Below are positions 20,579 through 41,821 of a stretch of 64,000 nucleotides of DNA, one piece after another. The notes beneath the pieces are model-generated. The model was not told where the DNA came from. It searched no databases and saw only the letters and a program-made list of their open reading frames with translations. This stretch comes from Candidatus Binatus sp. (lineage in GTDB: Bacteria > Desulfobacterota > Binatia > Binatales > Binataceae): positions 12,967-76,966 of the forward strand of contig NZ_JBEKFG010000004.1 of the NCBI RefSeq assembly GCF_050013435.1. Direction: 5' to 3'. How positions within the stretch are numbered: position 1 is the stretch's first letter; each line of letters starts with the position of its first letter. A program made the position numbers and the translations under genes.

Positions 20579-20719
20579 CGCGAACTAACCTAACATCATC
20601 GCGCGCAGTTGAGAAATCTGCGAGTTCACCCCTTCCACCCTCGCTCCTGAGATCGAGCACATCTCTCTTACCCCCTTACCCCTTCCTAACACGGACGAAG
20701 TCCCGCATCTTTTCTTAGT

Positions 20720-20780
20720 ATCGGGTGCAGGGATCACCCCTGCCCAAGGAAGTGTGAAACCCACGGTGGGTTTCACATTC
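20720..20780. repeat. Mosaic intergenic repeat module (family A) with two hairpins; probable terminator of the ABC operon
   Basis: GGGTGCAGGGATCACCCCTGCCC (20723..20745) and the perfect palindrome GTGAAACCCACGGTGGGTTTCAC (20753..20775). Related modules occur at 37030..37060. Confidence 0.6.
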
Positions 20781-25615: not shown

Positions 25616-25810
25616 GCATGAAGGAAGAATCACCTGCGCGGTGGCAGGGCTCAGCCCTGCACGGTCTGTTGGGACTTTTTTTGAGTCATTCTGAGCGAAG
25701 CGAAGGAACCCGGATCCGGCGTCCGACGTCGGCCAGACACGCGCTGGCGCGCGCGAGATCCTTCGGCTTCGCTCAGGATGACACAAAGAGGAGACGCGGA
25801 GGGGCTTTTG
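25616..25810. repeat. Mosaic intergenic repeat (family A) copy
   Basis: GGCATGAAGGAAGAATCACCTGCGCGGTGG..GGGCTCAGCCCTGCAC..GAGTCATTCTGAGCGAAGCGAAGGAACCCGGATCCGG..TCCTTCGGCTTCGCTCAGGATGAC, a long imperfect inverted repeat. Modules are shared with 26862.., 37017.. and 39040... Confidence 0.8.
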
Positions 25811-26861: not shown

Positions 26862-27175
26862 GCGGGCGCGGCATGAAGGAAGAATCACCTGCGCGGTGGG
26901 CGGCGGGGGTGACCCCTGCACCCGGTGTTAAGAAGACGCGAAAATCTGCGCAGGCAGGGCTGAGCCCTGCACCCAGTATTAAGGCCGCCCGCCGTTGGCG
27001 GGCGCGGCCCCTCGCCGTGGCGACGGCAAAGAAGAAGATCCGGGATTCTTCGCTTCGCTCTAGAATGACACGGGCGCCGCTTGCTTTTTTTCCGTCATCC
27101 TGAGCGCAGCGAAGGATCTCGCGCGCCAGCGCGTATCGCTTCAGCACCAGCATCCGGTTATGCACAGCTCTCCTA
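26862..27175. repeat. Mosaic intergenic repeat (family A) copy
   Basis: Shares its 5' module with 25616 (GGCATGAAGGAAGAATCACCTGCGCGGTGG). Shares a 135-nt 3' module (>95% identity) with 39100..39239, including GTCATCCTGAGCGCAGCGAAGGATCTC. Confidence 0.85.
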
Positions 27176-33798: not shown

Positions 33799-36212
33799 AG
33801 CTTCCGCTCAGTTGGATGCGCGACTTCGTCAGCGTGGACGCGCCGGTCGAGGAAATCTCGCGGCGCCTCAGTTACGCGGGGCTGGTGGTCGAGAATGTCG
33901 AAAAACTCACGCCCGGATTCGCGGGCGTGTTCGCCGCCAGGGTGCTCAACGTCGAAAAGCATCCCAACGCGGACCGGCTGAATCTTTGCGACGTGGACGC
34001 GGGCACCAAAGGCCAATTCAAAGTCGTGTGCGGCGCGCCCAACGTGAAGGCGGGCATGATGGCGCCGCTCGCTCTGGTTGGCGCGCAGCTTGGCAAGCAG
34101 CCGCCGCTGGAGGCAGCCGTCATTCGCGGTGTGCGTTCCGAGGGCATGCTCTGCTCGGAGCGCGAGCTTGGCCTGTCGCTGGATCAGGCTGGAATCCTGA
34201 CGCTCGGCGCCGATGCGCCGCTGGGTGGCGACGTGGCCGCGTATTTGCACCTCGACGATACCGTGCTCGATGTCGAAATCACGCCGAATCGGGGCGATTG
34301 CCTGTCGGTGCTGGGCCTGGCGCGCGAGGTCGCGGCCTTGTTCGCCGCCCGGCTGCGCGCACCACGGCTGCGCGCGGCGCATTCGGCCGGCTCGCCCGAC
34401 GGCGCGCGCTTCACGGTTTCGGTTTCGATCGACGCGCCCGATCTATGCCCTCGTTACGCCGCGCTCGCGATGACCGGAATCAAGATCGGTCCTTCGCCGG
34501 CGTGGCTCAAGCGCCGGCTGGAACTATGCGGGATGCGCGCGCTCAACAACGTCGTCGATGCGACCAACTACGTGATGCTCGAACTCGGCCAGCCCTTGCA
34601 CGCGTTCGACTTCGGCAAAATCGCAGACGGAAAGATCATCGTGCGCCGCGCCGGCGACACGCGCGAGTTCGTCACGCTCGACAACGTCGCGCGCACGCTC
34701 GATCCGAACGATCTGCTGATCGCCGACGGCGACAAGCCGCTGGCAATCGCGGGCGTGATGGGCGGTCTCAACTCCGAGGTCGGCGATCCGACCGGGACTA
34801 TTTTGCTCGAGAGCGCATACTTCGAGCCGATGACCATAGCGCGCACGGCGCGGCGCCTGGGTTTGCGCAGCGAGGCGAGTTACCGCTTCGAACGCGGCGT
34901 CGATCGAGCGGGACAAGTCGGCGCGCTGATTCGCGCCGCCGAATTGATCCGCAGGATCGCGCGCGGACGCGAGGCGTCGCCGATAGCCGACTTCGAGCCG
35001 CGCAAAGCCGAGCCGCGCGAGATTGCGCTCGACCTCGGCGCGATGGAATCGTTGCTGGGCGCCGCGATAGCGCCGACTGTGGCCAGGAGCCGGCTCAAAT
35101 CGCTGGGCGCGCAAGTGAGCACGCGCGCCAAGGGTGTGCTGGCGGTGGTGCCGCCGTCGTTCCGCTCCGACCTGGTCGAGCAGACCGACTTGATCGAGGA
35201 AGTCGCGCGGCTCGGCGGCTTCGAGGACATCCCGGCCCTGCTGCCGCAACGCGTCACCGCGCTGGCTCCCGTCAATCGCGAGCGCGAGTTCTTGAAGGGC
35301 ACGCGCGAAGTGATGCTGGGATGCGGCCTGACCGAAGCCGCCACTATCGCGTTCATCGCGCCCGCCGACAACGCGCGCTTTTCGGGGATTGTGGCCGCCG
35401 CCCGGCCCGTCAAAGTAACCAACCCGCTGTCCGCGGAACTCAGCGAACTGCGGGTGAGCCTGATACCGGGGCTGGTCACCGCGCTCAGGTTCAACTTGAA
35501 CCGCGAGGCCCGCGCCTTTCACGCATTTGAAATGGGCAAGACCTTCCGCATGGACGGCGACGCCGCGACCGAGCAACATCATCTCGCCGCCGTCAGCTAC
35601 GGAGCCTACGCGCTCTCCGCGATCGGCGAGCACAGCGTCGCGGCGGGATTTTTTTCGATCAAGGGAATCCTCGAGACGTACCTGGAAGCGATTGGAATTT
35701 CGCCGCGGGTGGCGTTCAAAGCTCTCGAGAGCGCCGATGCGCCATTCCTGCATCCCGGCCGCAGCGCTATCGTTATGCTCGACGACGCGCCGATCGGTTT
35801 GATTGGCGAGTTGCACCCCGCGGAGGCGATGCGGCTGGACCTCGACGATCCATGCGCGGTCTATGAACTTGACTTGAGTGGGCTCATTGCCTATGGTTTC
35901 TCGCCGCGCAAAACTTTCCAGCCGCCGCCAAAATATCCCGCGATCAGGCGCGATTTGGCGTTGGTGCTGGATCGAAATTTCCCGGCGGATATGGTAATCA
36001 AAGCCATTTGGGAATGCGGCGCATCGCTGCTGGAAAGCGTCGAGGTGTTCGACGTGTACGAGGGCACGGCGGTGGCCGCCGGGAAAAAGAGCGTGGCGTT
36101 GGCTTGTCGTTACCGTGCAAAGGATCGCACGCTGACCGATGAGGAGGTTAACCGCATTCACGCCGTGTTGATCGAGCAGGCGCTGATGCGATTAGGGGCG
36201 GAGTTGCGGTAA
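33795..36212 (+). CDS. pheT: Phenylalanine--tRNA ligase beta subunit
   Basis: ATGA overlap with pheS. tRNA-binding domain N-terminus (MKLPLSWMRDFV). B3/4, B5 and FDX-ACB regions. Confidence 0.9.
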   Translation: MKLPLSWMRDFVSVDAPVEEISRRLSYAGLVVENVEKLTPGFAGVFAARVLNVEKHPNADRLNLCDVDAGTKGQFKVVCGAPNVKAGMMAPLALVGAQLGKQPPLEAAVIRGVRSEGMLCSERELGLSLDQAGILTLGADAPLGGDVAAYLHLDDTVLDVEITPNRGDCLSVLGLAREVAALFAARLRAPRLRAAHSAGSPDGARFTVSVSIDAPDLCPRYAALAMTGIKIGPSPAWLKRRLELCGMRALNNVVDATNYVMLELGQPLHAFDFGKIADGKIIVRRAGDTREFVTLDNVARTLDPNDLLIADGDKPLAIAGVMGGLNSEVGDPTGTILLESAYFEPMTIARTARRLGLRSEASYRFERGVDRAGQVGALIRAAELIRRIARGREASPIADFEPRKAEPREIALDLGAMESLLGAAIAPTVARSRLKSLGAQVSTRAKGVLAVVPPSFRSDLVEQTDLIEEVARLGGFEDIPALLPQRVTALAPVNREREFLKGTREVMLGCGLTEAATIAFIAPADNARFSGIVAAARPVKVTNPLSAELSELRVSLIPGLVTALRFNLNREARAFHAFEMGKTFRMDGDAATEQHHLAAVSYGAYALSAIGEHSVAAGFFSIKGILETYLEAIGISPRVAFKALESADAPFLHPGRSAIVMLDDAPIGLIGELHPAEAMRLDLDDPCAVYELDLSGLIAYGFSPRKTFQPPPKYPAIRRDLALVLDRNFPADMVIKAIWECGASLLESVEVFDVYEGTAVAAGKKSVALACRYRAKDRTLTDEEVNRIHAVLIEQALMRLGAELR

Positions 36213-36259
36213 TTAAGCGTGCCTAACGCGAGCGGGTGGGGATCGTTACGCCGCAGGGC

Positions 36260-36553
36260 ATGACTAAAGCCGATCTTGTAGATCTGATCTACGAGCGGGT
36301 AGGCTCCTCGAAGAAGGAAGCCTGTGAAGTGGTCGAAGCGGTATTTGCGATCATCAGGGATTCATTGCGCCACGGTCAGAAAGTGAAAATTTCCGGCTTC
36401 GGCACCTTTCTCGTCAATCAAAAACATGCGCGCCGCGGGCGCAACCCGCAGACCGGCGAGCCGATTACCATCGACTCCCGCCGCGTCCTCTCCTTCAAGC
36501 CCAGCCAGGTATTGAAGGAGCGGGTTAACAACGGCGCCAAGCCGGCGGTATGA
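36260..36553 (+). CDS. ihfA: Integration host factor alpha subunit (HU/IHF family)
   Basis: MTKADLVDLIYERVG..VKISGFGTFLVNQKHARRGRNPQTGEPITIDSRRVLSFKPS. Immediately downstream of pheT, as in the pheST-himA arrangement. Confidence 0.85.
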   Translation: MTKADLVDLIYERVGSSKKEACEVVEAVFAIIRDSLRHGQKVKISGFGTFLVNQKHARRGRNPQTGEPITIDSRRVLSFKPSQVLKERVNNGAKPAV

Positions 36554-37014
36554 CGCCGATGCCACGCCAGCCGTCAGTTCGCCGGCAAAAATCCAAGCCG
36601 GATGCGCGCGCCACGATGTCCTTGTTCCCCGAGCGCGGGCTGAAGATCGGCGAAGCGGCGCGCGCGCTGGGCGTCGAGACCTACGTGCTGCGTTTTTGGG
36701 AAACCCAGTTCCCATTTCTGAAACCCAGGCACACCCGCACCAAGCATCGCTTCTACAATGAAAAGGACCTCGACGTGCTGCGCCTCATCAAGCGCCTGCT
36801 GCACGACGAAGGCTTCACGATCGTAGGCGCCAACAAGCACATCAAGGAATTCGGCATCGACGCGCTGATGACCGGCAAGCCGATCGCGAAGCCGTCCCCG
36901 GCGTCATCGGAGCGCGCGCCGGCGCGATCTCCCGGAATCGACGGTCAAGCCCGCCGCGTGCTCAATGAGGTCCGCCGCGACCTCGAATCGATCCACAAGA
37001 TTCTGGAAGACTGA
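36550..37014 (+). CDS. MerR-family transcriptional regulator
   Basis: HTH LKIGEAARALGVETYVLRFWETQFPFLKP...FYNEKDLDVLRLIKRLL. 4-nt overlap with ihfA. Confidence 0.75.
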   Translation: MTPMPRQPSVRRQKSKPDARATMSLFPERGLKIGEAARALGVETYVLRFWETQFPFLKPRHTRTKHRFYNEKDLDVLRLIKRLLHDEGFTIVGANKHIKEFGIDALMTGKPIAKPSPASSERAPARSPGIDGQARRVLNEVRRDLESIHKILED

Positions 37015-37016
37015 GT

Positions 37017-37325
37017 CGCGCACTCACCAAGCTAAGGGAGAGCGAAACCCACCGTGGGTTCCGGCAGGGGTGACCCCTGCACCCAATGTTAAGGCCGCGC
37101 TCCGTTGTCGCGCGCGGCCCCTGCACCCGCAGTGAGAAGTCGTGAAAATCTGCGCAGCGCATCTTTTCACGACTACGCACTGGCAGGGGTGAGCAGGGCT
37201 GAGCCCTGCACCCAGTGTTAAGGAGAAGATGCGGCCTGACGGCCTGCTAGGACTTTTTTTGAGTCATCCTGAGCGAAGCGAAGGAACCCGGATCCGGGCT
37301 TCGCCCTGTTAGAAGTGGTTAAGGG
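37017..37325. repeat. Mosaic intergenic repeat (family A) copy, multi-module
   Basis: GAAACCCACCGTGGGTTCC hairpin. GGCAGGGGTGACCCCTGCACCC. GGCTGAGCCCTGCACCCAGTGTTAAGG (shared with 26930..). GAGTCATCCTGAGCGAAGCGAAGGAACCCGGATCCGG (shared with 25690..). Confidence 0.85.
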
Positions 37326-37456
37326 GGAAAAAATAGTCGTCGTTGGCCGTAGTGTTTTCTGTCATCGCGAGCGAAGTCTGCGTAATCGAGGGACCCCGGA
37401 TCTTACCCCGCCCGTTACTTCATGGGAGAGGCGGCCGGCCGTCCGGTAGTCGGCTT

Positions 37457-37528
37457 GATTCCGTGGGAACCTGCCTCCTTCGTTCTCTCACGTCGGGAAC
37501 GCGGGTTCGACTCCGGCTGGGATCACCA
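37457..37528 (+). pseudogene. Degenerate tRNA-like element (possible decayed tRNA-Arg(ACG) or integration-site remnant)
   Basis: Acceptor GATTCCG/TGGGATC (two G-U pairs). T arm GCGGG-TTCGACT-CCGGC (one G-G mismatch). CCA end. Anticodon-like loop TCACGTC. The D loop lacks GG, there is no variable loop, and position 33 is C, so it is not a functional canonical tRNA. Confidence 0.3.
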
Positions 37529-37598
37529 CTAGAATGAATAACTCTCAAAAGAATGTACGTGCAGTAAGTGTTCGATAGCCACGGAGGCTGCGCAGGTA

Positions 37599-38873
37599 GT
37601 GGAGGAGGACATGGGCACCAAAACAGCGATCGAATTAATGCAAGAGGAGTTGTTCAGAAAATCGCAAATGTTCGAGCGATATTCGGGATTCTGGTACGAG
37701 CAGCAGTCGTTCCTAGAAATGACCCGGATTGCAGGCTCAAGTCAGCTGGAATTCCTTTCCAAGGCAACCGAAGCGGCGCGTCTGTCGTTTAGCGCGGCTG
37801 ATCTAGTGGGTAGTTCGCTTTTGAAAACCCCTCTCGCTGCCCTTACGAAATCTTTTGCTGAACAGGCGACAGCCTTTCAGCAGATCAATAGATCGATAGC
37901 TAGCGATATGGGACGATTTGCACTGATTTCTGAGCAAATCGCGGCTCGGTTCCGTATGCCAGCGATCGAAGAAATGGCCGCGCTTAGAAATATGCTCGAA
38001 GCTGCTCACGAGGCCACAAGGTTCGTTGCGGAAAAAATGAATTTCCTTCGGGCGGCGGAGTCTTTTCAGGTCGCTTGGATCAATATCGAATCTCCGTTGA
38101 ATTCGCTTAAAGCCTTGTCTGATCTGAACGGGATTGGAAACGCCCTCAAGACTTTCCAACCCTTCGAATCTGAGTTAACGGGTATCCTACGATCGTCTCT
38201 AGGTGACTGGCGGAACGTGACAATTCCACAACCAGTCTATGAAGACGCTCTCGAAAGAGTTGATTTCTACGCGGGACAAGGCTTTGACCTCGAACTCACA
38301 AATTTCCCACAGCCCGCATTCGACCTGATTCTTGATGCGGCAGAGATCCGGCCCAGGTCGCCCTCGCTGGCGGTACGCAAGCTTGAAGGCGCGGTCACGA
38401 TAGAGCTTCTCACGGATCACGAATCTATGATGGGATTCGCCTACGATCTGTTGTTTGAACTCGAGAGCCGATTTAGAGCTTTCATCCACCGGCAGATGGT
38501 CAGCAGGTTCGGAGAGCAGTGGTTACAGCGTCAGGTTCCGGGTCCGATGCGGAAAGCGTGGGAAAGTAAACGAGCGGTGGCCCTTGAGCGAGGCGAACCC
38601 ATACAGGATTTGATTTTCTACGCAGACTTTACAGACTATGTAACAATCATATGCAGACGCGATAACTGGAATAGTGCTTTTCGAGAAGTGTTTCTCCGAA
38701 AGGAGGGCGTCCAGGAGGCATTTTATCGTCTCTTCCCGATCCGGATTTGCACAATGCACGCGCGACCGATCACACAGGCAGACCTGCTGCTGCTCTTCGT
38801 AGAGTCGGACCGCCTGCTCAAAGCCATCGACGCTAAATCGCGAAGAGCCACCAGAGAGGTCACGGCCCGATAA
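37599..38873 (+). CDS. HEPN-domain protein (C-terminal Swt1/Abi-like HEPN with Rx4H motif) in low-GC islet
   Basis: The C-terminal 140 aa read ..DLIFYADFTDYVTIICRRDNWNSAFREVFLRKEGVQEAFYRLFPIRICTMHARPIT.. (R-x4-H HEPN signature). The N-terminal 280 aa are helical and unassigned. Local GC is about 48-50% against about 66% in the flanks. Confidence 0.5.
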   Translation: MEEDMGTKTAIELMQEELFRKSQMFERYSGFWYEQQSFLEMTRIAGSSQLEFLSKATEAARLSFSAADLVGSSLLKTPLAALTKSFAEQATAFQQINRSIASDMGRFALISEQIAARFRMPAIEEMAALRNMLEAAHEATRFVAEKMNFLRAAESFQVAWINIESPLNSLKALSDLNGIGNALKTFQPFESELTGILRSSLGDWRNVTIPQPVYEDALERVDFYAGQGFDLELTNFPQPAFDLILDAAEIRPRSPSLAVRKLEGAVTIELLTDHESMMGFAYDLLFELESRFRAFIHRQMVSRFGEQWLQRQVPGPMRKAWESKRAVALERGEPIQDLIFYADFTDYVTIICRRDNWNSAFREVFLRKEGVQEAFYRLFPIRICTMHARPITQADLLLLFVESDRLLKAIDAKSRRATREVTAR

Positions 38874-39039
38874 TCGGATTAGTCTGCGGCCCCGCGCATC
38901 GTGGATCAAAACCGGCAAAACCTTGCAGAGCGAGGCAATCCGGAGCCAAGCGGCGGTCGGGATGACGGAGTGAGACGGAATGGGGCGCGAGAGGAACTTG
39001 GAATTTGGACCCGCTCCCGACGCTCGATGACTCGCGTCG

Positions 39040-39240
39040 GCCTCGCCCTGTCAGGGCGAGGCACGACTAACGCCGGACACCGGAGTTTCCGGCGAGATTC
39101 TTCGCTACAGCAGCTTTCGCTCAGAATGACACGGGCGCCGCTTGCTTTTTTTCCGTCATCCTGAGCGCAGCGAAGGATCTCGCGCGCCAGCGCGTATCGC
39201 TTCAGCACCAACATCCGGTTACGCACAGCTCTCCTGTCGG
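39040..39240. repeat. Mosaic intergenic repeat (family A) copy
   Basis: Palindrome GGCCTCGCCCTGTCAGGGCGAGGC, then a 135-nt module nearly identical to 27046..27174. Confidence 0.85.
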
Positions 39241-39271
39241 AGTGGTGCCGAGGGATGGAGGCTGGAGAAAA

Positions 39272-41821
39272 CTATTCCGCGATGCGGTCGCGCGAGGCTA
39301 GTTGGGCGCGGGCGGGCTTGCGTGCAGAGGCCGTCGCTTCCGCAGTCGAAGGCTGACGTATCAGCACGCCGAGCGGCGCGAGATTCAGTTCGGTGGCGCA
39401 TTGCTCGGTCGCGCGATGCGCGACGCGTCCGGCCTCGACCATCTCGGCAATTATGCACACCGCGCCGGCCATCGTGAGCGCCCCCAGGCCAAGCGCGATC
39501 TCAGGCAGTCCCGCGATCGCGGCGACGGCCGCGCTGATCACGCCCGCCGCCAGAGCCAGCTTGGTGATTCGAGTGGACTTTATCCGCACCAGTACGCGGT
39601 TGGTGACCTTGCCCGCCTCGTGCTCTTCGTCGGCGGTCTTGAGTTCGATTCGGGTCCACGGATTGGGGCGCACTTCGAGGTCGTAGTCGTTCCATCCCGC
39701 ATCGACGACGGCGCCATGGCCGCTGCGCGCGAACAGCTTCAGCATCCGGTCCATCAGGCGGTCACGCGTGATGCTTTCGTCGTTCCAATAGTCCAGCCGG
39801 ATCGAACGCCTGAGCCAGTTGATGGTTGGGCGTTGGCGCACGCCGTCGGCGCCCGCGAGTCCGGTCAGGGCTTTCGCCCGCGTCTTGTAGCGCGTCATCG
39901 TTCGCACCATCGGTCCCGTGTAAGCGAGATACGCGATCAGAAGTCGCGCGGTAAAACTTTGGTGAGATTTTTCCAGCGGCGCATGCCACGCATAGTAGAG
40001 CGCCCAAATCGGCCCGAGCGCGAGCATCGCAGCCGCGGGAATGATCGACACCCCAAGCACGATCGACGCGGCAATCGCGATCGCCGAGAGCACGGTCCAT
40101 TCGAGCGTCTGCGGGAGAACCCTGGCCAGGGTAAGTGCGGGATCGAAAATCGTCTGCGCGCCTGCGGTTGCATTCCAGAGCACGCGTTTGCGGCTGCCGC
40201 CCGGAATAGTGCGCGCGAGGCCGGGAATCGTGCCGCGCCACGCGATTTGGCCCATCACGTTGAAGCGCTCGGGATAGCGCGGATACAGCATCGCCTCGGC
40301 GCGTCCATAGCCGCGCTGCTGTCCGTAGTAAGCCTTGACCGTGTTGCGCCGGAAGTGCCAGACGAAGGCGGCCGGCGAGAAGCCGAGCTTGAAGCCCGCG
40401 TCGAGCAATCGCCAGCAAATGTCAACGTCGTCGCCCGCCGACGTGAACTGCGGATCGAATCCGCCAATCTTCGCGAGCGCCGCCTTGGAGAAGAGCATGT
40501 TGCAGCCTGCCAGATGCTCGGCGCGATCCTCGGCGACCAGCACGTGGCACGGGGCGCCCGGCGATGCGGCGCAACTGGCTTCGATCCAGCCGTCTTCGTG
40601 CGGCGCGTAGTTCGGTCCGCCGCATCCGTCGAAGTTGTTTTCGATCATCAAGCGGACCATCAGCGTCAGCCAATGCGGATCGACGACGCAGTCCGAATCG
40701 GTGTAGGCGATTATTTCGCCGCGCGCCGCATGCATCCCGACGTTGCGCGCGACGCCGAGGCCCTTGTTGGGCTGGCGAATGAGACGGAACTCCGGAAAGT
40801 CCATCGAGATGTCAGCGGTGCGATCGCGCGAGCCGTCATCGACGATGACCACCTCGAAATTGGGGTAGTCGAGGCGGCGCAGCGACTCCAGGCAATCGCG
40901 CATGGTGCGCTCGGCGTCGTACGCGCAAATCACCACCGACACCATCGGCGTCTTCGGCGGCCGCGGCGGGCAGGTGCCATTGAGCGTCACGAACGGCATC
41001 ACATCCGACGCGCGCATCATGCGCACGCCAAGCCAGTCTTGAGAAACCGGAGCAGGAACGGGAGGAGCAACCACGCCAGCCGCACCCGTGCCAAACGCCA
41101 CTGCTACCGCCTCGTCCTGCCCCGGCGATGCCTGTCTGAATTCGATCACCACCGGCCGCGCCTCCGCGAGGTTGTGCAAGGCGACGACGAAATCGCGAAT
41201 CTCGAGCGGCTCGAGCGCCGGGATTTCCGCGTAAAGAAAATCTTCTTCGAGGATTGAAAGGGCGCGCGTTTCCGGCCGCACCTTTATCCCGACCATCGCG
41301 TCAGGCGCGCGTCCCTTGATCGTCTTTACCACGCCGCGCAGGCGCCGCCGCGCGTTTTCGAGTCCGCCCGCGCGCAGCGCGTCCGGGGCGATTTCGCAAT
41401 TGAGGATGTAACCGGCCAGGGCCGGATGCGTGGCGAAAATGTTTGTTGTATGCGCGATCCGCGAGACCACGGATTTCCATCCGCGGCGGCTGGTCAGCTC
41501 GTCGGCCGTGATTCTCAACTCGACCATCGCGACCAGTCCCGACTGGGCCGCGATGTCCAGGCAGGGCTGCGCATTCGCCTCGGTCAGCACCAGGCCGGTG
41601 GTGTGCGAGGCTCTGAGGTCGTCGAGTCGCTTTCTTAGTTTGAGCTTGTGAGCAAACTCGAGTGTCGCGCTGACGTCGGCGAGGCGCATCGCCTTGAAAA
41701 AGAACTTCTGTCCGGCACGGGCAAGGAACTTACCGTGCGGGGTGACGCGTTGGACCGGACCGGAATTGGTAAGCATCTGATGTAGGCGCCCTCTCGATAA
41801 GGACCCAAGTGCCAAAGCCAT
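39272..41821 (-). CDS. Multidomain processive family-2 glycosyltransferase (N-terminal GH-like/unknown domain + GT2 + C-terminal multi-TM domain)
   Basis: GT2 core MVSVVICAYDAERTMRDCL..VVIVDDGS..YTDSDCVVDPHWL (DxD). GQQRGYGRAEA occupies the QxxRW position of cellulose/chitin/PNAG synthase-type GT2 enzymes. At least 6 TM helices follow. Confidence 0.6.
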   Translation of the reverse strand: MALALGSLSRGRLHQMLTNSGPVQRVTPHGKFLARAGQKFFFKAMRLADVSATLEFAHKLKLRKRLDDLRASHTTGLVLTEANAQPCLDIAAQSGLVAMVELRITADELTSRRGWKSVVSRIAHTTNIFATHPALAGYILNCEIAPDALRAGGLENARRRLRGVVKTIKGRAPDAMVGIKVRPETRALSILEEDFLYAEIPALEPLEIRDFVVALHNLAEARPVVIEFRQASPGQDEAVAVAFGTGAAGVVAPPVPAPVSQDWLGVRMMRASDVMPFVTLNGTCPPRPPKTPMVSVVICAYDAERTMRDCLESLRRLDYPNFEVVIVDDGSRDRTADISMDFPEFRLIRQPNKGLGVARNVGMHAARGEIIAYTDSDCVVDPHWLTLMVRLMIENNFDGCGGPNYAPHEDGWIEASCAASPGAPCHVLVAEDRAEHLAGCNMLFSKAALAKIGGFDPQFTSAGDDVDICWRLLDAGFKLGFSPAAFVWHFRRNTVKAYYGQQRGYGRAEAMLYPRYPERFNVMGQIAWRGTIPGLARTIPGGSRKRVLWNATAGAQTIFDPALTLARVLPQTLEWTVLSAIAIAASIVLGVSIIPAAAMLALGPIWALYYAWHAPLEKSHQSFTARLLIAYLAYTGPMVRTMTRYKTRAKALTGLAGADGVRQRPTINWLRRSIRLDYWNDESITRDRLMDRMLKLFARSGHGAVVDAGWNDYDLEVRPNPWTRIELKTADEEHEAGKVTNRVLVRIKSTRITKLALAAGVISAAVAAIAGLPEIALGLGALTMAGAVCIIAEMVEAGRVAHRATEQCATELNLAPLGVLIRQPSTAEATASARKPARAQLASRDRIAE

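What the first reader, a model, noticed from the sequence alone, without database searches (positions are those of the whole stretch)
37330..38990. Low-GC single-gene islet encoding a HEPN (Rx4H) protein, bracketed by mosaic repeats and a tRNA-like remnant
GC drops from about 66% to about 49% across 37540..38880. The only credible ORF (424 aa) ends in a Swt1/Abi-like HEPN fold motif (FREVFLRKE...FPIRICTMHARP) and has an unassigned 280-aa N-terminal helical region. HEPN proteins are typically RNases of toxin-antitoxin, abortive-infection or other defence systems. The flanking family-A repeats and a degenerate tRNA-like 3' end (37457..37528) suggest horizontal acquisition. No cognate antitoxin or partner ORF is evident, so this could be a stand-alone or novel defence gene.
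Basis: partly seen in the sequence, partly recalled or inferred. Interest (0 to 1): 0.7.

Follow-up and report, generated by a model that had tools for sequence, protein, structure and literature searches.

The report
Orphaned HEPN RNase gene from mobile element
A foreign, low-GC stretch of about 1.4 kb in a Candidatus Binatus genome carries one intact gene for a predicted RNA-cutting (HEPN) protein of an untested, defence-associated family, and it looks like the leftover edge of a small mobile element that normally inserts into a tRNA-Glu gene: interesting but not unusual in kind.

Summary
Window 37485..38876 is a foreign module with the lowest GC in the 64 kb. It contains one intact ORF (37611..38873, 420 aa). 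The C-terminus of that ORF passes the Pfam Swt1-like HEPN threshold and has an Rx4H motif that is invariant in 146 distant relatives.

The "tRNA-like remnant" is real only for its last 44 nt. Those match the 3' half of tRNA-Glu(CUC) at 43 of 44 positions, starting in the anticodon loop.

In two related genomes the same module sits as tRNA-Glu | HEPN | integrase, followed by excisionase, primase, methylase and small terminase. That gene set resembles a phage satellite. Here only the tRNA half and the HEPN gene remain. They lie between merR and a glycosyltransferase, a gap that is only 9 bp long in one sister genome.

The flanking "mosaic repeats" are dispersed intergenic repeats and do not mark the islet borders.

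The protein family is large (429 clusters at E<=1e-30), untested, and has no constant partner gene. Some members are fused to HigA behind HigB, or follow MqsRA, or lie near CBASS or HipA genes.

Most likely it is a single-protein, self-regulated HEPN RNase used in defence or conflict. That function is inferred, not shown. I rate it a new member of a known kind, of moderate interest.

The parts
37485..38876 (+). Extent of the foreign module (tRNA-Glu 3' half, spacer and HEPN gene)
   Evidence: blastn: 80.6% identity over 1400 nt to L007 3628..5025 and 72% to L009 7871..9216. Homology starts in the tRNA anticodon loop and ends about 30 nt past the stop-codon position of the relatives. It is absent from the same merR|GT2 gap in sister genomes L010, L011 and L012.
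37485..37528 (+). 3' 44 nt of tRNA-Glu(CUC), from anticodon loop to CCA: an att-type remnant, not a functional tRNA
   Evidence: 43/44 identical to the intact tRNA-Glu(CUC) of L007 and L009; the one difference is C->G in the T stem. ARAGORN finds no tRNA and Rfam is below threshold. The upstream sequence has no similarity to the tRNA 5' half.
37529..37610 (+). Spacer with a promoter-like site (TCGACT at 37507 in the T loop, 17 nt, TAGAAT at 37530-37535) and ribosome-binding site GGAGGAGGA (37601-37609)
   Evidence: Consensus scan, (the number of matches is at chance level, so this is only suggestive). The RBS and ATG are conserved in L007 and L009.
37611..38873 (+). CDS, 420 aa, Swt1-family HEPN domain protein (public record: hypothetical protein, Candidatus Binatus sp.)
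   Evidence: dN/dS is 0.29-0.36 against the two closest relatives. The protein is 100% identical on all 22 contigs read; one search lists 33 contigs for the cluster.
37611..37910 (+). Variable N-terminal helical region (aa 1-100)
   Evidence: Low pLDDT long helices. Not conserved across the family. dN/dS 0.56-0.66. Replaced by HTH_3 (HigA-like) or other sequence in relatives.
37923..38360 (+). Conserved all-alpha domain of unknown fold (aa ~105-250; motifs FRLP, PWL, SLGDWR, FY..GFD..LT.FP..AF)
38424..38855 (+). Swt1-like HEPN domain (aa ~272-415)
38742..38759 (+). Rx4H catalytic motif (R378-ICTM-H383)
   Evidence: R378 and H383 are invariant in 146 representatives of 50%-identity clusters. 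H383 is invariant and R378 is conserved in >=90% of the 23 closer homologs.
37043..37297 (.). Dispersed intergenic repeats (context only, not part of the module)
   Evidence: Copies elsewhere in the window and at unrelated sites in other genomes.
39089..39235 (.). Dispersed intergenic repeats (context only, not part of the module)
   Evidence: 97.5% identical to window 27054-27174; also matches L009 977-1089.

Best explanation
The islet is the surviving edge of a small integrative element that looks like a phage satellite and targets tRNA-Glu(CUC).

In intact relatives the order is tRNA-Glu | HEPN gene | integrase, excisionase, primase or replication initiator, methyltransferase, small terminase. 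The HEPN gene therefore sits between the attachment site and the integrase. In this Binatus lineage the piece 'tRNA 3' half + HEPN gene' ended up in a variable intergenic gap between merR and a glycosyltransferase gene. The rest of the element is missing. The likely route is integration at a secondary site followed by deletion (inferred).

The gene is intact and under purifying selection. Its product has three parts:
- a variable helical N-terminus;
- a conserved all-alpha domain of unknown fold;
- a Swt1/AbiD-F-like HEPN domain with an invariant Rx4H motif.

By analogy with characterised HEPN enzymes, two HEPN domains would pair to form a metal-independent endoribonuclease. The conserved alpha domain would then hold the enzyme inactive or sense a trigger such as phage infection. 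Once released, RNA cleavage would arrest the cell or the invader, as in abortive infection.

Shown: foreign origin, module borders, domain identity, motif conservation, lack of a constant partner gene. Inferred: RNase activity, self-regulation, defence role.
For: Origin:
- Borders and homology to L007 and L009.
- The element gene set confirmed with PHROGs.
- Sister genomes lack the gene in the same gap, which is only 9 bp in L012 and holds other cargo in L010, L011, L013 and L016.
- GC and GC3 are outliers.

Protein:
- Pfam Swt1-like HEPN above cutoff.
- Fold matches to Swt1 and AbiF.
- Rx4H invariant.
- dN/dS 0.22-0.25 in the HEPN part.

Family:
- 1534 cluster representatives at E<=1e-3 and 429 at E<=1e-30. 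Among the 150 best, most matches cover the alpha domain plus HEPN.
- No neighbour family is shared by more than 5 of 90 loci.

Conflict-system contexts:
- HigB next to HigA-fused members.
- MqsR-MqsA-HEPN on a plasmid, in an island that also has PLD, GIY-YIG, mCpol and a CBASS cyclase.
- ParDE plus integrase.
- Cap15 and HipA neighbours.
- A PADLOC defence-candidate hit.

Precedent: HEC-08, a single-protein HEPN defence that is lost on mutation of the motif histidine (bioRxiv 10.1101/2024.01.29.577857, read).
Against: - No experiment exists on any member of this family.
- PDC-M34 is itself an untested candidate. Only its B component matches, and only over the HEPN part.
- No homolog was found in 50,697 phage records or in IMG/VR.
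- No attR repeat was found in the relatives, so whether the HEPN gene lies inside the element is inferred.
- No statistically supported integrase remnant and no att repeat at the right border in the window.
- The -35-like TTGACA seen upstream in L007 and L009 is changed here, so expression is unproven.
- The alpha domain's role is a guess, because it has no structural relative.
Confidence: 0.55

Rival explanations
1. Addiction or stabilisation module. The HEPN protein is a toxin-like RNase whose main role was to keep the mobile element (or now this locus) from being lost. It would work with TA-type regulators rather than against phages.
For: Family members are fused to HigA behind HigB, follow MqsRA, or sit beside ParDE or HipA. 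The gene sits at the edge of an integrative element. Homologs occur on 20 plasmids.
Against: No antitoxin partner exists here or in most of the 90 loci. A lone toxin cannot act as an addiction module without a labile inhibitor. Here the element it would stabilise is gone, yet the gene is still conserved.
Confidence: 0.2
2. Domesticated or housekeeping RNA-binding or RNA-processing factor. The HEPN domain would be used for a host function, as in eukaryotic Swt1 or Las1, not for conflict.
For: Some homologs are lone chromosomal genes among ordinary genes. The closest solved fold is yeast Swt1. The gene is identical across many samples of this species.
Against: It is absent from three sister genomes with the same synteny. 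Its composition is foreign. Contexts across relatives are patchy and mobile. The Rx4H motif is invariant, which argues for catalysis rather than binding alone.
Confidence: 0.1
3. Non-functional relic. The gene is a passenger left by a decayed element and is no longer expressed or useful.
For: The integrase and the rest of the element are lost. The original stop codon has changed (TGA->CGA), adding 11 residues. The upstream -35-like hexamer of the relatives is altered.
Against: The 420-codon frame is intact. dN/dS is 0.29-0.36 overall and 0.22-0.25 in the HEPN part, but those values mostly reflect history before the insertion. All catalytic and family-invariant residues are kept. The tRNA fragment has only one change, so the insertion is recent and decay may not have had time to show.
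Confidence: 0.12

Closest known systems
Swt1-like HEPN domain family (Pfam PF18731; Abi2/Swt1 clade of Anantharaman et al. 2013, PMC3710099)
   Same: It passes the Pfam gathering score, has the Rx4H motif, and its predicted fold is closest to the yeast Swt1 C-terminal domain. NCBI annotates plasmid homologs as 'Swt1 family HEPN domain-containing protein'.
   Different: Yeast Swt1 has a PIN domain and a probably inactive HEPN. The bacterial Swt1-like forms described in 2013 are fused to an AAA+ ATPase (DUF499) in R-M operons, or to a TM helix. This family instead carries a conserved ~150-aa all-alpha domain of unknown fold and is usually a lone gene.
AbiD/AbiF (Abi_2) abortive-infection HEPN RNases
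   Different: No Pfam Abi_2 hit at E<=1. [quoted passage not shown] No such RNA was found in 35000..41000 at E<=1.
HEC-08, a single-protein HEPN (DUF3644) defence found embedded in Hachiman systems (bioRxiv 10.1101/2024.01.29.577857)
   Same: A lone HEPN protein with extra uncharacterised domains. Defence depends on the histidine of the Rx4-6H motif. It is the best functional precedent for the proposed mechanism.
   Different: It belongs to a different HEPN subfamily, its accessory domains are C-terminal zinc-finger-like, and no sequence relationship was detected here.
PADLOC candidate PDC-M34 (component B)
   Same: The HEPN part matches the PDC-M34B profiles (E 1.5e-11).
   Different: PDC-M34 is a multi-gene, untested candidate. 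No A component was found next to the gene. The match covers only residues 270-391.
HEPN-MNT and other type II toxin-antitoxin systems (HigBA, MqsRA)
   Same: A HEPN RNase as a toxin-like effector. Relatives of this protein are fused to HigA behind HigB or follow MqsRA.
   Different: The window has no MNT, HigB, MqsR or HTH partner, and the window protein has no HTH domain.
Accessory (cargo) genes next to the integrase of phage satellites (PICI or P4-like elements; from my own knowledge of the literature, not read here)
   Same: In L007 and L009 the gene lies between the tRNA attachment site and the integrase of an element that has excisionase, primase or replication initiator, methylase and small terminase but no structural genes in the stretches read.
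   Different: In the window the element is gone. att repeats were not found even in the relatives, so satellite status is a resemblance, not a demonstrated membership.

Membership tests
Swt1-like HEPN (PF18731) | Profile match above Pfam's gathering score | tested here: met
   29.0 bits against a cutoff of 27.5, residues 286-411. Of ten long relatives scanned, nine pass the cutoff (27.9-44.5 bits) and one scores 23.1 bits, below it.
Swt1-like HEPN (PF18731) | Rx4-6H motif conserved | tested here: met
   R378-x4-H383. Both residues are invariant in 146 representatives.
Swt1-like HEPN (PF18731) | HEPN helical fold | tested here: met
Swt1-like HEPN (PF18731) | Endoribonuclease activity | not testable with these tools
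   Needs biochemistry.
AbiD/AbiF (Abi_2) | Abi_2 profile match | tested here: not met
AbiD/AbiF (Abi_2) | Associated non-coding RNA (RF03085) | tested here: not met
   An Rfam scan of 35000..41000 at E<=1 returned only the sub-threshold tRNA hit.
HEPN-MNT type II toxin-antitoxin | Adjacent nucleotidyltransferase (MNT) antitoxin gene | tested here: not met
   No credible neighbouring ORF. No conserved neighbour across 90 loci.
PADLOC PDC-M34 | Component B present | tested here: met
   PDLC04592 E 1.5e-11, but only over residues 270-391.
PADLOC PDC-M34 | Component A encoded nearby | tested here: not met
   None of seven flanking ORFs matched a PDC-M34A model.
HigB / HigA-HEPN fusion subfamily | N-terminal HTH_3 domain and an upstream HigB gene | tested here: not met
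   The window protein has no HTH_3 and no HigB is upstream. Both are present in L092, L094, L095, L148 and L153.
Functional tRNA gene | Complete cloverleaf detected by tRNA finders | tested here: not met
   ARAGORN finds none. Rfam gives 22.9 bits against a gathering score of 29. The 5' half is no better than shuffled sequence.
Integrated element or genomic island at a tRNA | Border at a tRNA 3' segment | tested here: met
   Homology starts in the anticodon loop, and 43/44 positions are identical to tRNA-Glu(CUC).
Integrated element or genomic island at a tRNA | Integrase gene and flanking direct att repeats | tested here: not met
   No integrase similarity in the window. The apparent remnant after the stop codon is not significant: 31 of 300 shuffles score as high. 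No direct repeat longer than 7 nt between the two borders.

The most novel reading that the evidence does not exclude
The conserved ~150-aa all-alpha domain (FRLP / PWL / SLGDWR / LT.FP..AF motifs), joined to a Swt1-type HEPN domain, defines a widespread and so far untested single-protein immune effector. In this reading the alpha domain is a new trigger-sensing or self-inhibiting module. The same two-domain core can be attached to HigA or placed behind MqsA, giving toxin-antitoxin-gated RNases. Satellite-like elements would carry it in the slot between their attachment site and integrase.
Probability: 0.3. Interest if true: 0.55.

Novelty: new member of a known kind. Interest (0 to 1): 0.4.

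Why it matters
If the protein is an active, self-controlled RNase, it adds a large family (hundreds of 50%-identity clusters in soils, waters and plasmids) to the list of single-gene HEPN defences. It would also supply a conserved accessory domain with no structural relative, whose trigger could be studied.

The HigA-fused and MqsRA-linked relatives suggest a modular link between classic toxin-antitoxin pairs and a second RNase effector.

For genome annotation, the locus is a clear worked example of how a lone 'orphan' defence-like gene can arise. A half tRNA plus the first cargo gene survive after the rest of a tRNA-integrating element is lost, at a gap that holds different cargo in each sister genome.

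None of this is surprising in kind. HEPN genes in mobile, low-GC islets are a well-known pattern.

Tried and rejected
- **Integrase remnant right of the gene.** tblastn found nothing near 38870-39270. The local DNA similarity to the integrase 3' end is not above shuffles. Rejected as unsupported.
- **Whole degenerate tRNA at 37457..37528.** The 5' half shows no similarity to tRNA-Glu: 990 of 1000 shuffles score at least as high. Only the 3' 44 nt is real.
- **att direct repeats at the islet borders, and attR in L007, L008 and L009.** None found.
- **Flanking repeats as island borders.** Rejected. They are dispersed in the window and occur at unrelated sites in other genomes.
- **A hidden partner or antitoxin.** Antisense ORFs are not conserved. 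No neighbour cluster occurs in more than 5 of 90 loci. No PADLOC hit on flanking ORFs other than a weak, generic mad1 (HTH) match on merR.
- **Phage origin.** No hit in PHROGs, the phage collection or IMG/VR.
- **Literature.** Nothing on PDC-M34 or on bacterial Swt1-family HEPN proteins beyond the 2013 survey.
- **Cargo in sister genomes' gaps.** No Pfam hits except a RidA/L-PSP ORF in L011.
- **Pfam scan of all 146 representatives.** Ten long members were scanned instead.

Full report

Yes. In 300-nt windows, GC falls to 0.49-0.55 across 37500..38850, against 0.60-0.70 on both sides. The gene has GC 0.517 and GC3 0.563. Its neighbours pheT, merR and the glycosyltransferase have GC 0.63-0.65 and GC3 0.78-0.81. 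A gene-sized window here is the lowest in the whole 64 kb, about 3.6 sd below the mean.

There is one long ORF on the + strand, 37599..38873. The likely start is ATG 37611. It is preceded by GGAGGAGGA, aligns with the starts of the closest relatives, and matches the 420-aa public record, a 'hypothetical protein' of Candidatus Binatus sp.. ORFs on the opposite strand are not kept in position or frame in the two closest relatives, so they are spurious.

**2. What is the protein?**

- **Database matches.** Pfam gives Swt1-like HEPN (PF18731) at 29.0 bits, above the curated cutoff of 27.5, on residues 286-411. PADLOC matches the HEPN part to the untested candidate PDC-M34B (E 1.5e-11). NCBIfam and PHROGs give nothing.
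- **Predicted structure.** The AlphaFold model is confident (pLDDT >90) for residues ~105-250 and 272-415, and poor for the first ~100 residues.
- **Catalytic motif.** The motif is R378-ICTM-H383 (38742..38759). Both residues are invariant in an alignment of 146 representatives of 50%-identity clusters.
- **N-terminus.** The first ~100 residues are variable across the family and evolve faster, with dN/dS 0.56-0.66 against 0.22-0.25 in the HEPN part.

**3. Where did it come from?**

The two closest homologs (75% and 63% amino-acid identity) lie in the order tRNA-Gln, tRNA-Glu(CUC), 88 nt, HEPN gene. A convergent tyrosine integrase follows. After it come a hypothetical gene, an HTH_17 excisionase-type regulator, a primase-helicase (or a replication initiator), a DNA methyltransferase and a small terminase. 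That gene set resembles a phage satellite. No structural genes are present in the stretches read.

At the DNA level, window 37485..38876 matches L007 3628..5025 at 80.6% over 1400 nt.

- **Left border.** It falls in the anticodon loop of tRNA-Glu. The window keeps only the last 44 nt of the tRNA, at 43/44 identity; the one change is in the T stem. This explains why ARAGORN finds nothing and Rfam scores 22.9 bits, below its threshold of 29. The sequence to the left has no similarity to the tRNA 5' half.
- **Right border.** It lies about 30 nt past the position of the relatives' stop codon, where their integrase gene ends. I found no supported integrase remnant and no att repeat there.

A block of tRNA identity running from the anticodon loop to the 3' end is what a tRNA-targeting integrase leaves at a junction. 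That statement rests on established knowledge of such integrases, not on a test done here.

**4. Is it an insertion?**

Yes. Three sister genomes (PheT protein 90-91% identical) keep the order pheT-ihfA-merR-glycosyltransferase with no HEPN homolog. In one of them the merR|GT2 gap is only 9 bp. In other relatives the same gap is 169 bp to 5.1 kb and holds unrelated cargo. None of these gaps contains a tRNA. The gap is thus a variable hotspot, and the HEPN module is specific to this lineage.

Within the species the protein is identical on all 22 contigs read, and the six places displayed share the same neighbours; one search lists 33 contigs for its cluster.

The tRNA fragment differs from a real tRNA-Glu at one position only, while the rest of the module is 20% diverged from L007. 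This suggests a recent arrival from a different variant of the element (inference).

**5. The flanking repeats**

They exist (37043-37297 and 39089-39235) but do not mark the borders of the module. The same units occur at 20714, 25656-25787 and 26901-27174 in the window, and at unrelated intergenic sites of other Binatus-like genomes. They are a dispersed intergenic repeat family and say nothing about transfer.

**6. The family and its contexts**

A full HMMER search of 1.84 billion cluster representatives finds 1534 relatives at E<=1e-3 and 429 at E<=1e-30. Among the 150 best, most matches cover the middle domain plus HEPN.

I compared ORFs within 2.5 kb of the gene across 90 loci. No neighbour family occurs in more than five of them, so there is no constant partner.

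Recurrent but minority contexts are all of the conflict type:
- a HigB toxin directly upstream of members whose N-terminus is a HigA-like HTH_3 domain, in five loci;
- MqsR-MqsA-HEPN on a conjugative Sulfitobacter plasmid, in an island that also carries a PLD nuclease, a GIY-YIG nuclease, mCpol and a CBASS cyclase;
- ParDE and an integrase;
- Cap15 and HipA neighbours;
- IS elements and a large-terminase gene.

Twenty plasmids carry homologs, which NCBI names 'Swt1 family HEPN domain-containing protein'. No homolog was found in phage genomes or in IMG/VR. At least one homolog is a lone chromosomal gene.

**7. How it most likely works**

- **Shown:** it is a foreign, intact gene that has been under purifying selection (dN/dS 0.29-0.36). 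It encodes a Swt1-type HEPN domain with an invariant catalytic motif and a conserved accessory domain, and it has no partner gene.
- **Inferred from what is known of HEPN enzymes** (PMC3710099): two HEPN domains pair to form a metal-independent endoribonuclease. A lone HEPN effector must be held in check, and here the conserved alpha domain most plausibly does this. It would then be released by a trigger such as infection.
- **Precedent:** a lone HEPN protein acting in defence, dependent on the motif histidine, is HEC-08 (bioRxiv 10.1101/2024.01.29.577857).

I put about 0.8 on the 'relic of a tRNA-Glu element' part, about 0.65 on an active RNase, and about 0.4-0.5 on a defence role. Overall confidence is 0.55.

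The rivals are an addiction-type toxin, a domesticated RNA factor and a silent relic. They are listed with their tests in the rival explanations.

**8. Comparison with known families**

- **Member of:** the Swt1-like HEPN Pfam family. The profile, the motif and the fold criteria are all met.
- **Not a member of:**
  - Abi_2 (AbiD/F): no profile hit and no RF03085-type RNA.
  - HEPN-MNT: no MNT gene.
  - The HigBA-fused branch: no HTH domain and no HigB here.
  - A complete PDC-M34 system: no A component.
- **Difference from described bacterial Swt1-like forms:** those are AAA+ fusions in R-M operons or TM-anchored forms. This family has its own accessory domain and is usually a lone gene.

**9. 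Verdict**

This is a new, untested member of a well-known kind, a HEPN RNase gene in a mobile-element relic. The origin story is unusually clean, and the accessory domain is unassigned. Interest is moderate (0.4).

Noticed in passing
window 37043-37297, 39089-39235, 20714-20774, 25656-25787, 26901-27174; also L009 888-1089, L010 3746-3769, L011 21696-21727, L012 4166-4240: A dispersed family of short intergenic repeats shared by several Binatus-like genomes at unrelated sites. Core sequences are GTCATCCTGAGCGnAGCGAAGGA and CCCTGCACCCArTGTTAAGG. One pair (39116-39235 and 27054-27174) is 97.5% identical over 121 nt.
   Followed up: partly
gap between merR and the glycosyltransferase: window 37015-39271; L012 13222-13229; L010 13242-14010; L011 13249-14577; L016 13222-15516; L013 13481-18587: This intergenic gap is a variable hotspot. 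It is 9 bp in L012. L010 and L011 share a two-ORF cassette on the minus strand (99/90 aa plus 132 aa, no Pfam match), and L011 adds a RidA/L-PSP ORF. L016 holds a 412-aa ORF with no Pfam hit plus two small ORFs. L013 holds 5.1 kb of other ORFs.
   Followed up: partly
L092 5707-7449, L094 3706-5452, L095 3706-5458, L148 295-2044, L153 4151-5936: A branch of the family is a three-part protein (HigA-like HTH_3, then the conserved alpha domain, then HEPN). In the three loci with gene calls (L092, L094, L095) it starts 16 nt after a HigB-like toxin gene, so the antitoxin is fused to a second RNase-type domain. In one of these (P0030) the motif arginine is replaced by histidine (IHLDTMH).
   Followed up: partly
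L097 (Sulfitobacter sp. CB2047 plasmid pSpoCB-3) 1-10897: MqsR, MqsA and a family member are consecutive genes. The surrounding island also carries a PLD-like protein, a GIY-YIG nuclease, an mCpol protein and a CBASS-type cyclase.
   Followed up: no
window 38838-38873: The window protein is 11 residues longer than its closest relative (L007). The relative's TGA stop is CGA here, so translation runs on into sequence that in the relative is the antisense of the integrase 3' end.
   Followed up: yes
window 37130-37182: A near-perfect hairpin (26-nt arms, 85% complementary, 1-nt loop) lies between two copies of the CCCTGCACCCArTGTTAAGG repeat, downstream of merR. It could be a terminator or part of the repeat element.
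   Followed up: no
L007 3481-12992 and L009 7725-14828: A small element sits next to tRNA-Gln/tRNA-Glu, downstream of rny. It carries an integrase, an excisionase-type HTH, a primase-helicase or replication initiator, a methyltransferase and a small terminase, with no structural genes in the stretches read. In L007 a type I Cas3 gene follows. No attR repeat was found in the DNA fetched.
   Followed up: partly
L007 3481-3669 and L009 7725-7912, minus strand: Rfam 'Plastid-ycf2' sub-threshold hits (about 30 bits against a gathering score of 65.7) fall on the antisense strand of ordinary tRNA genes. This is a database artefact, not a feature.
   Followed up: no
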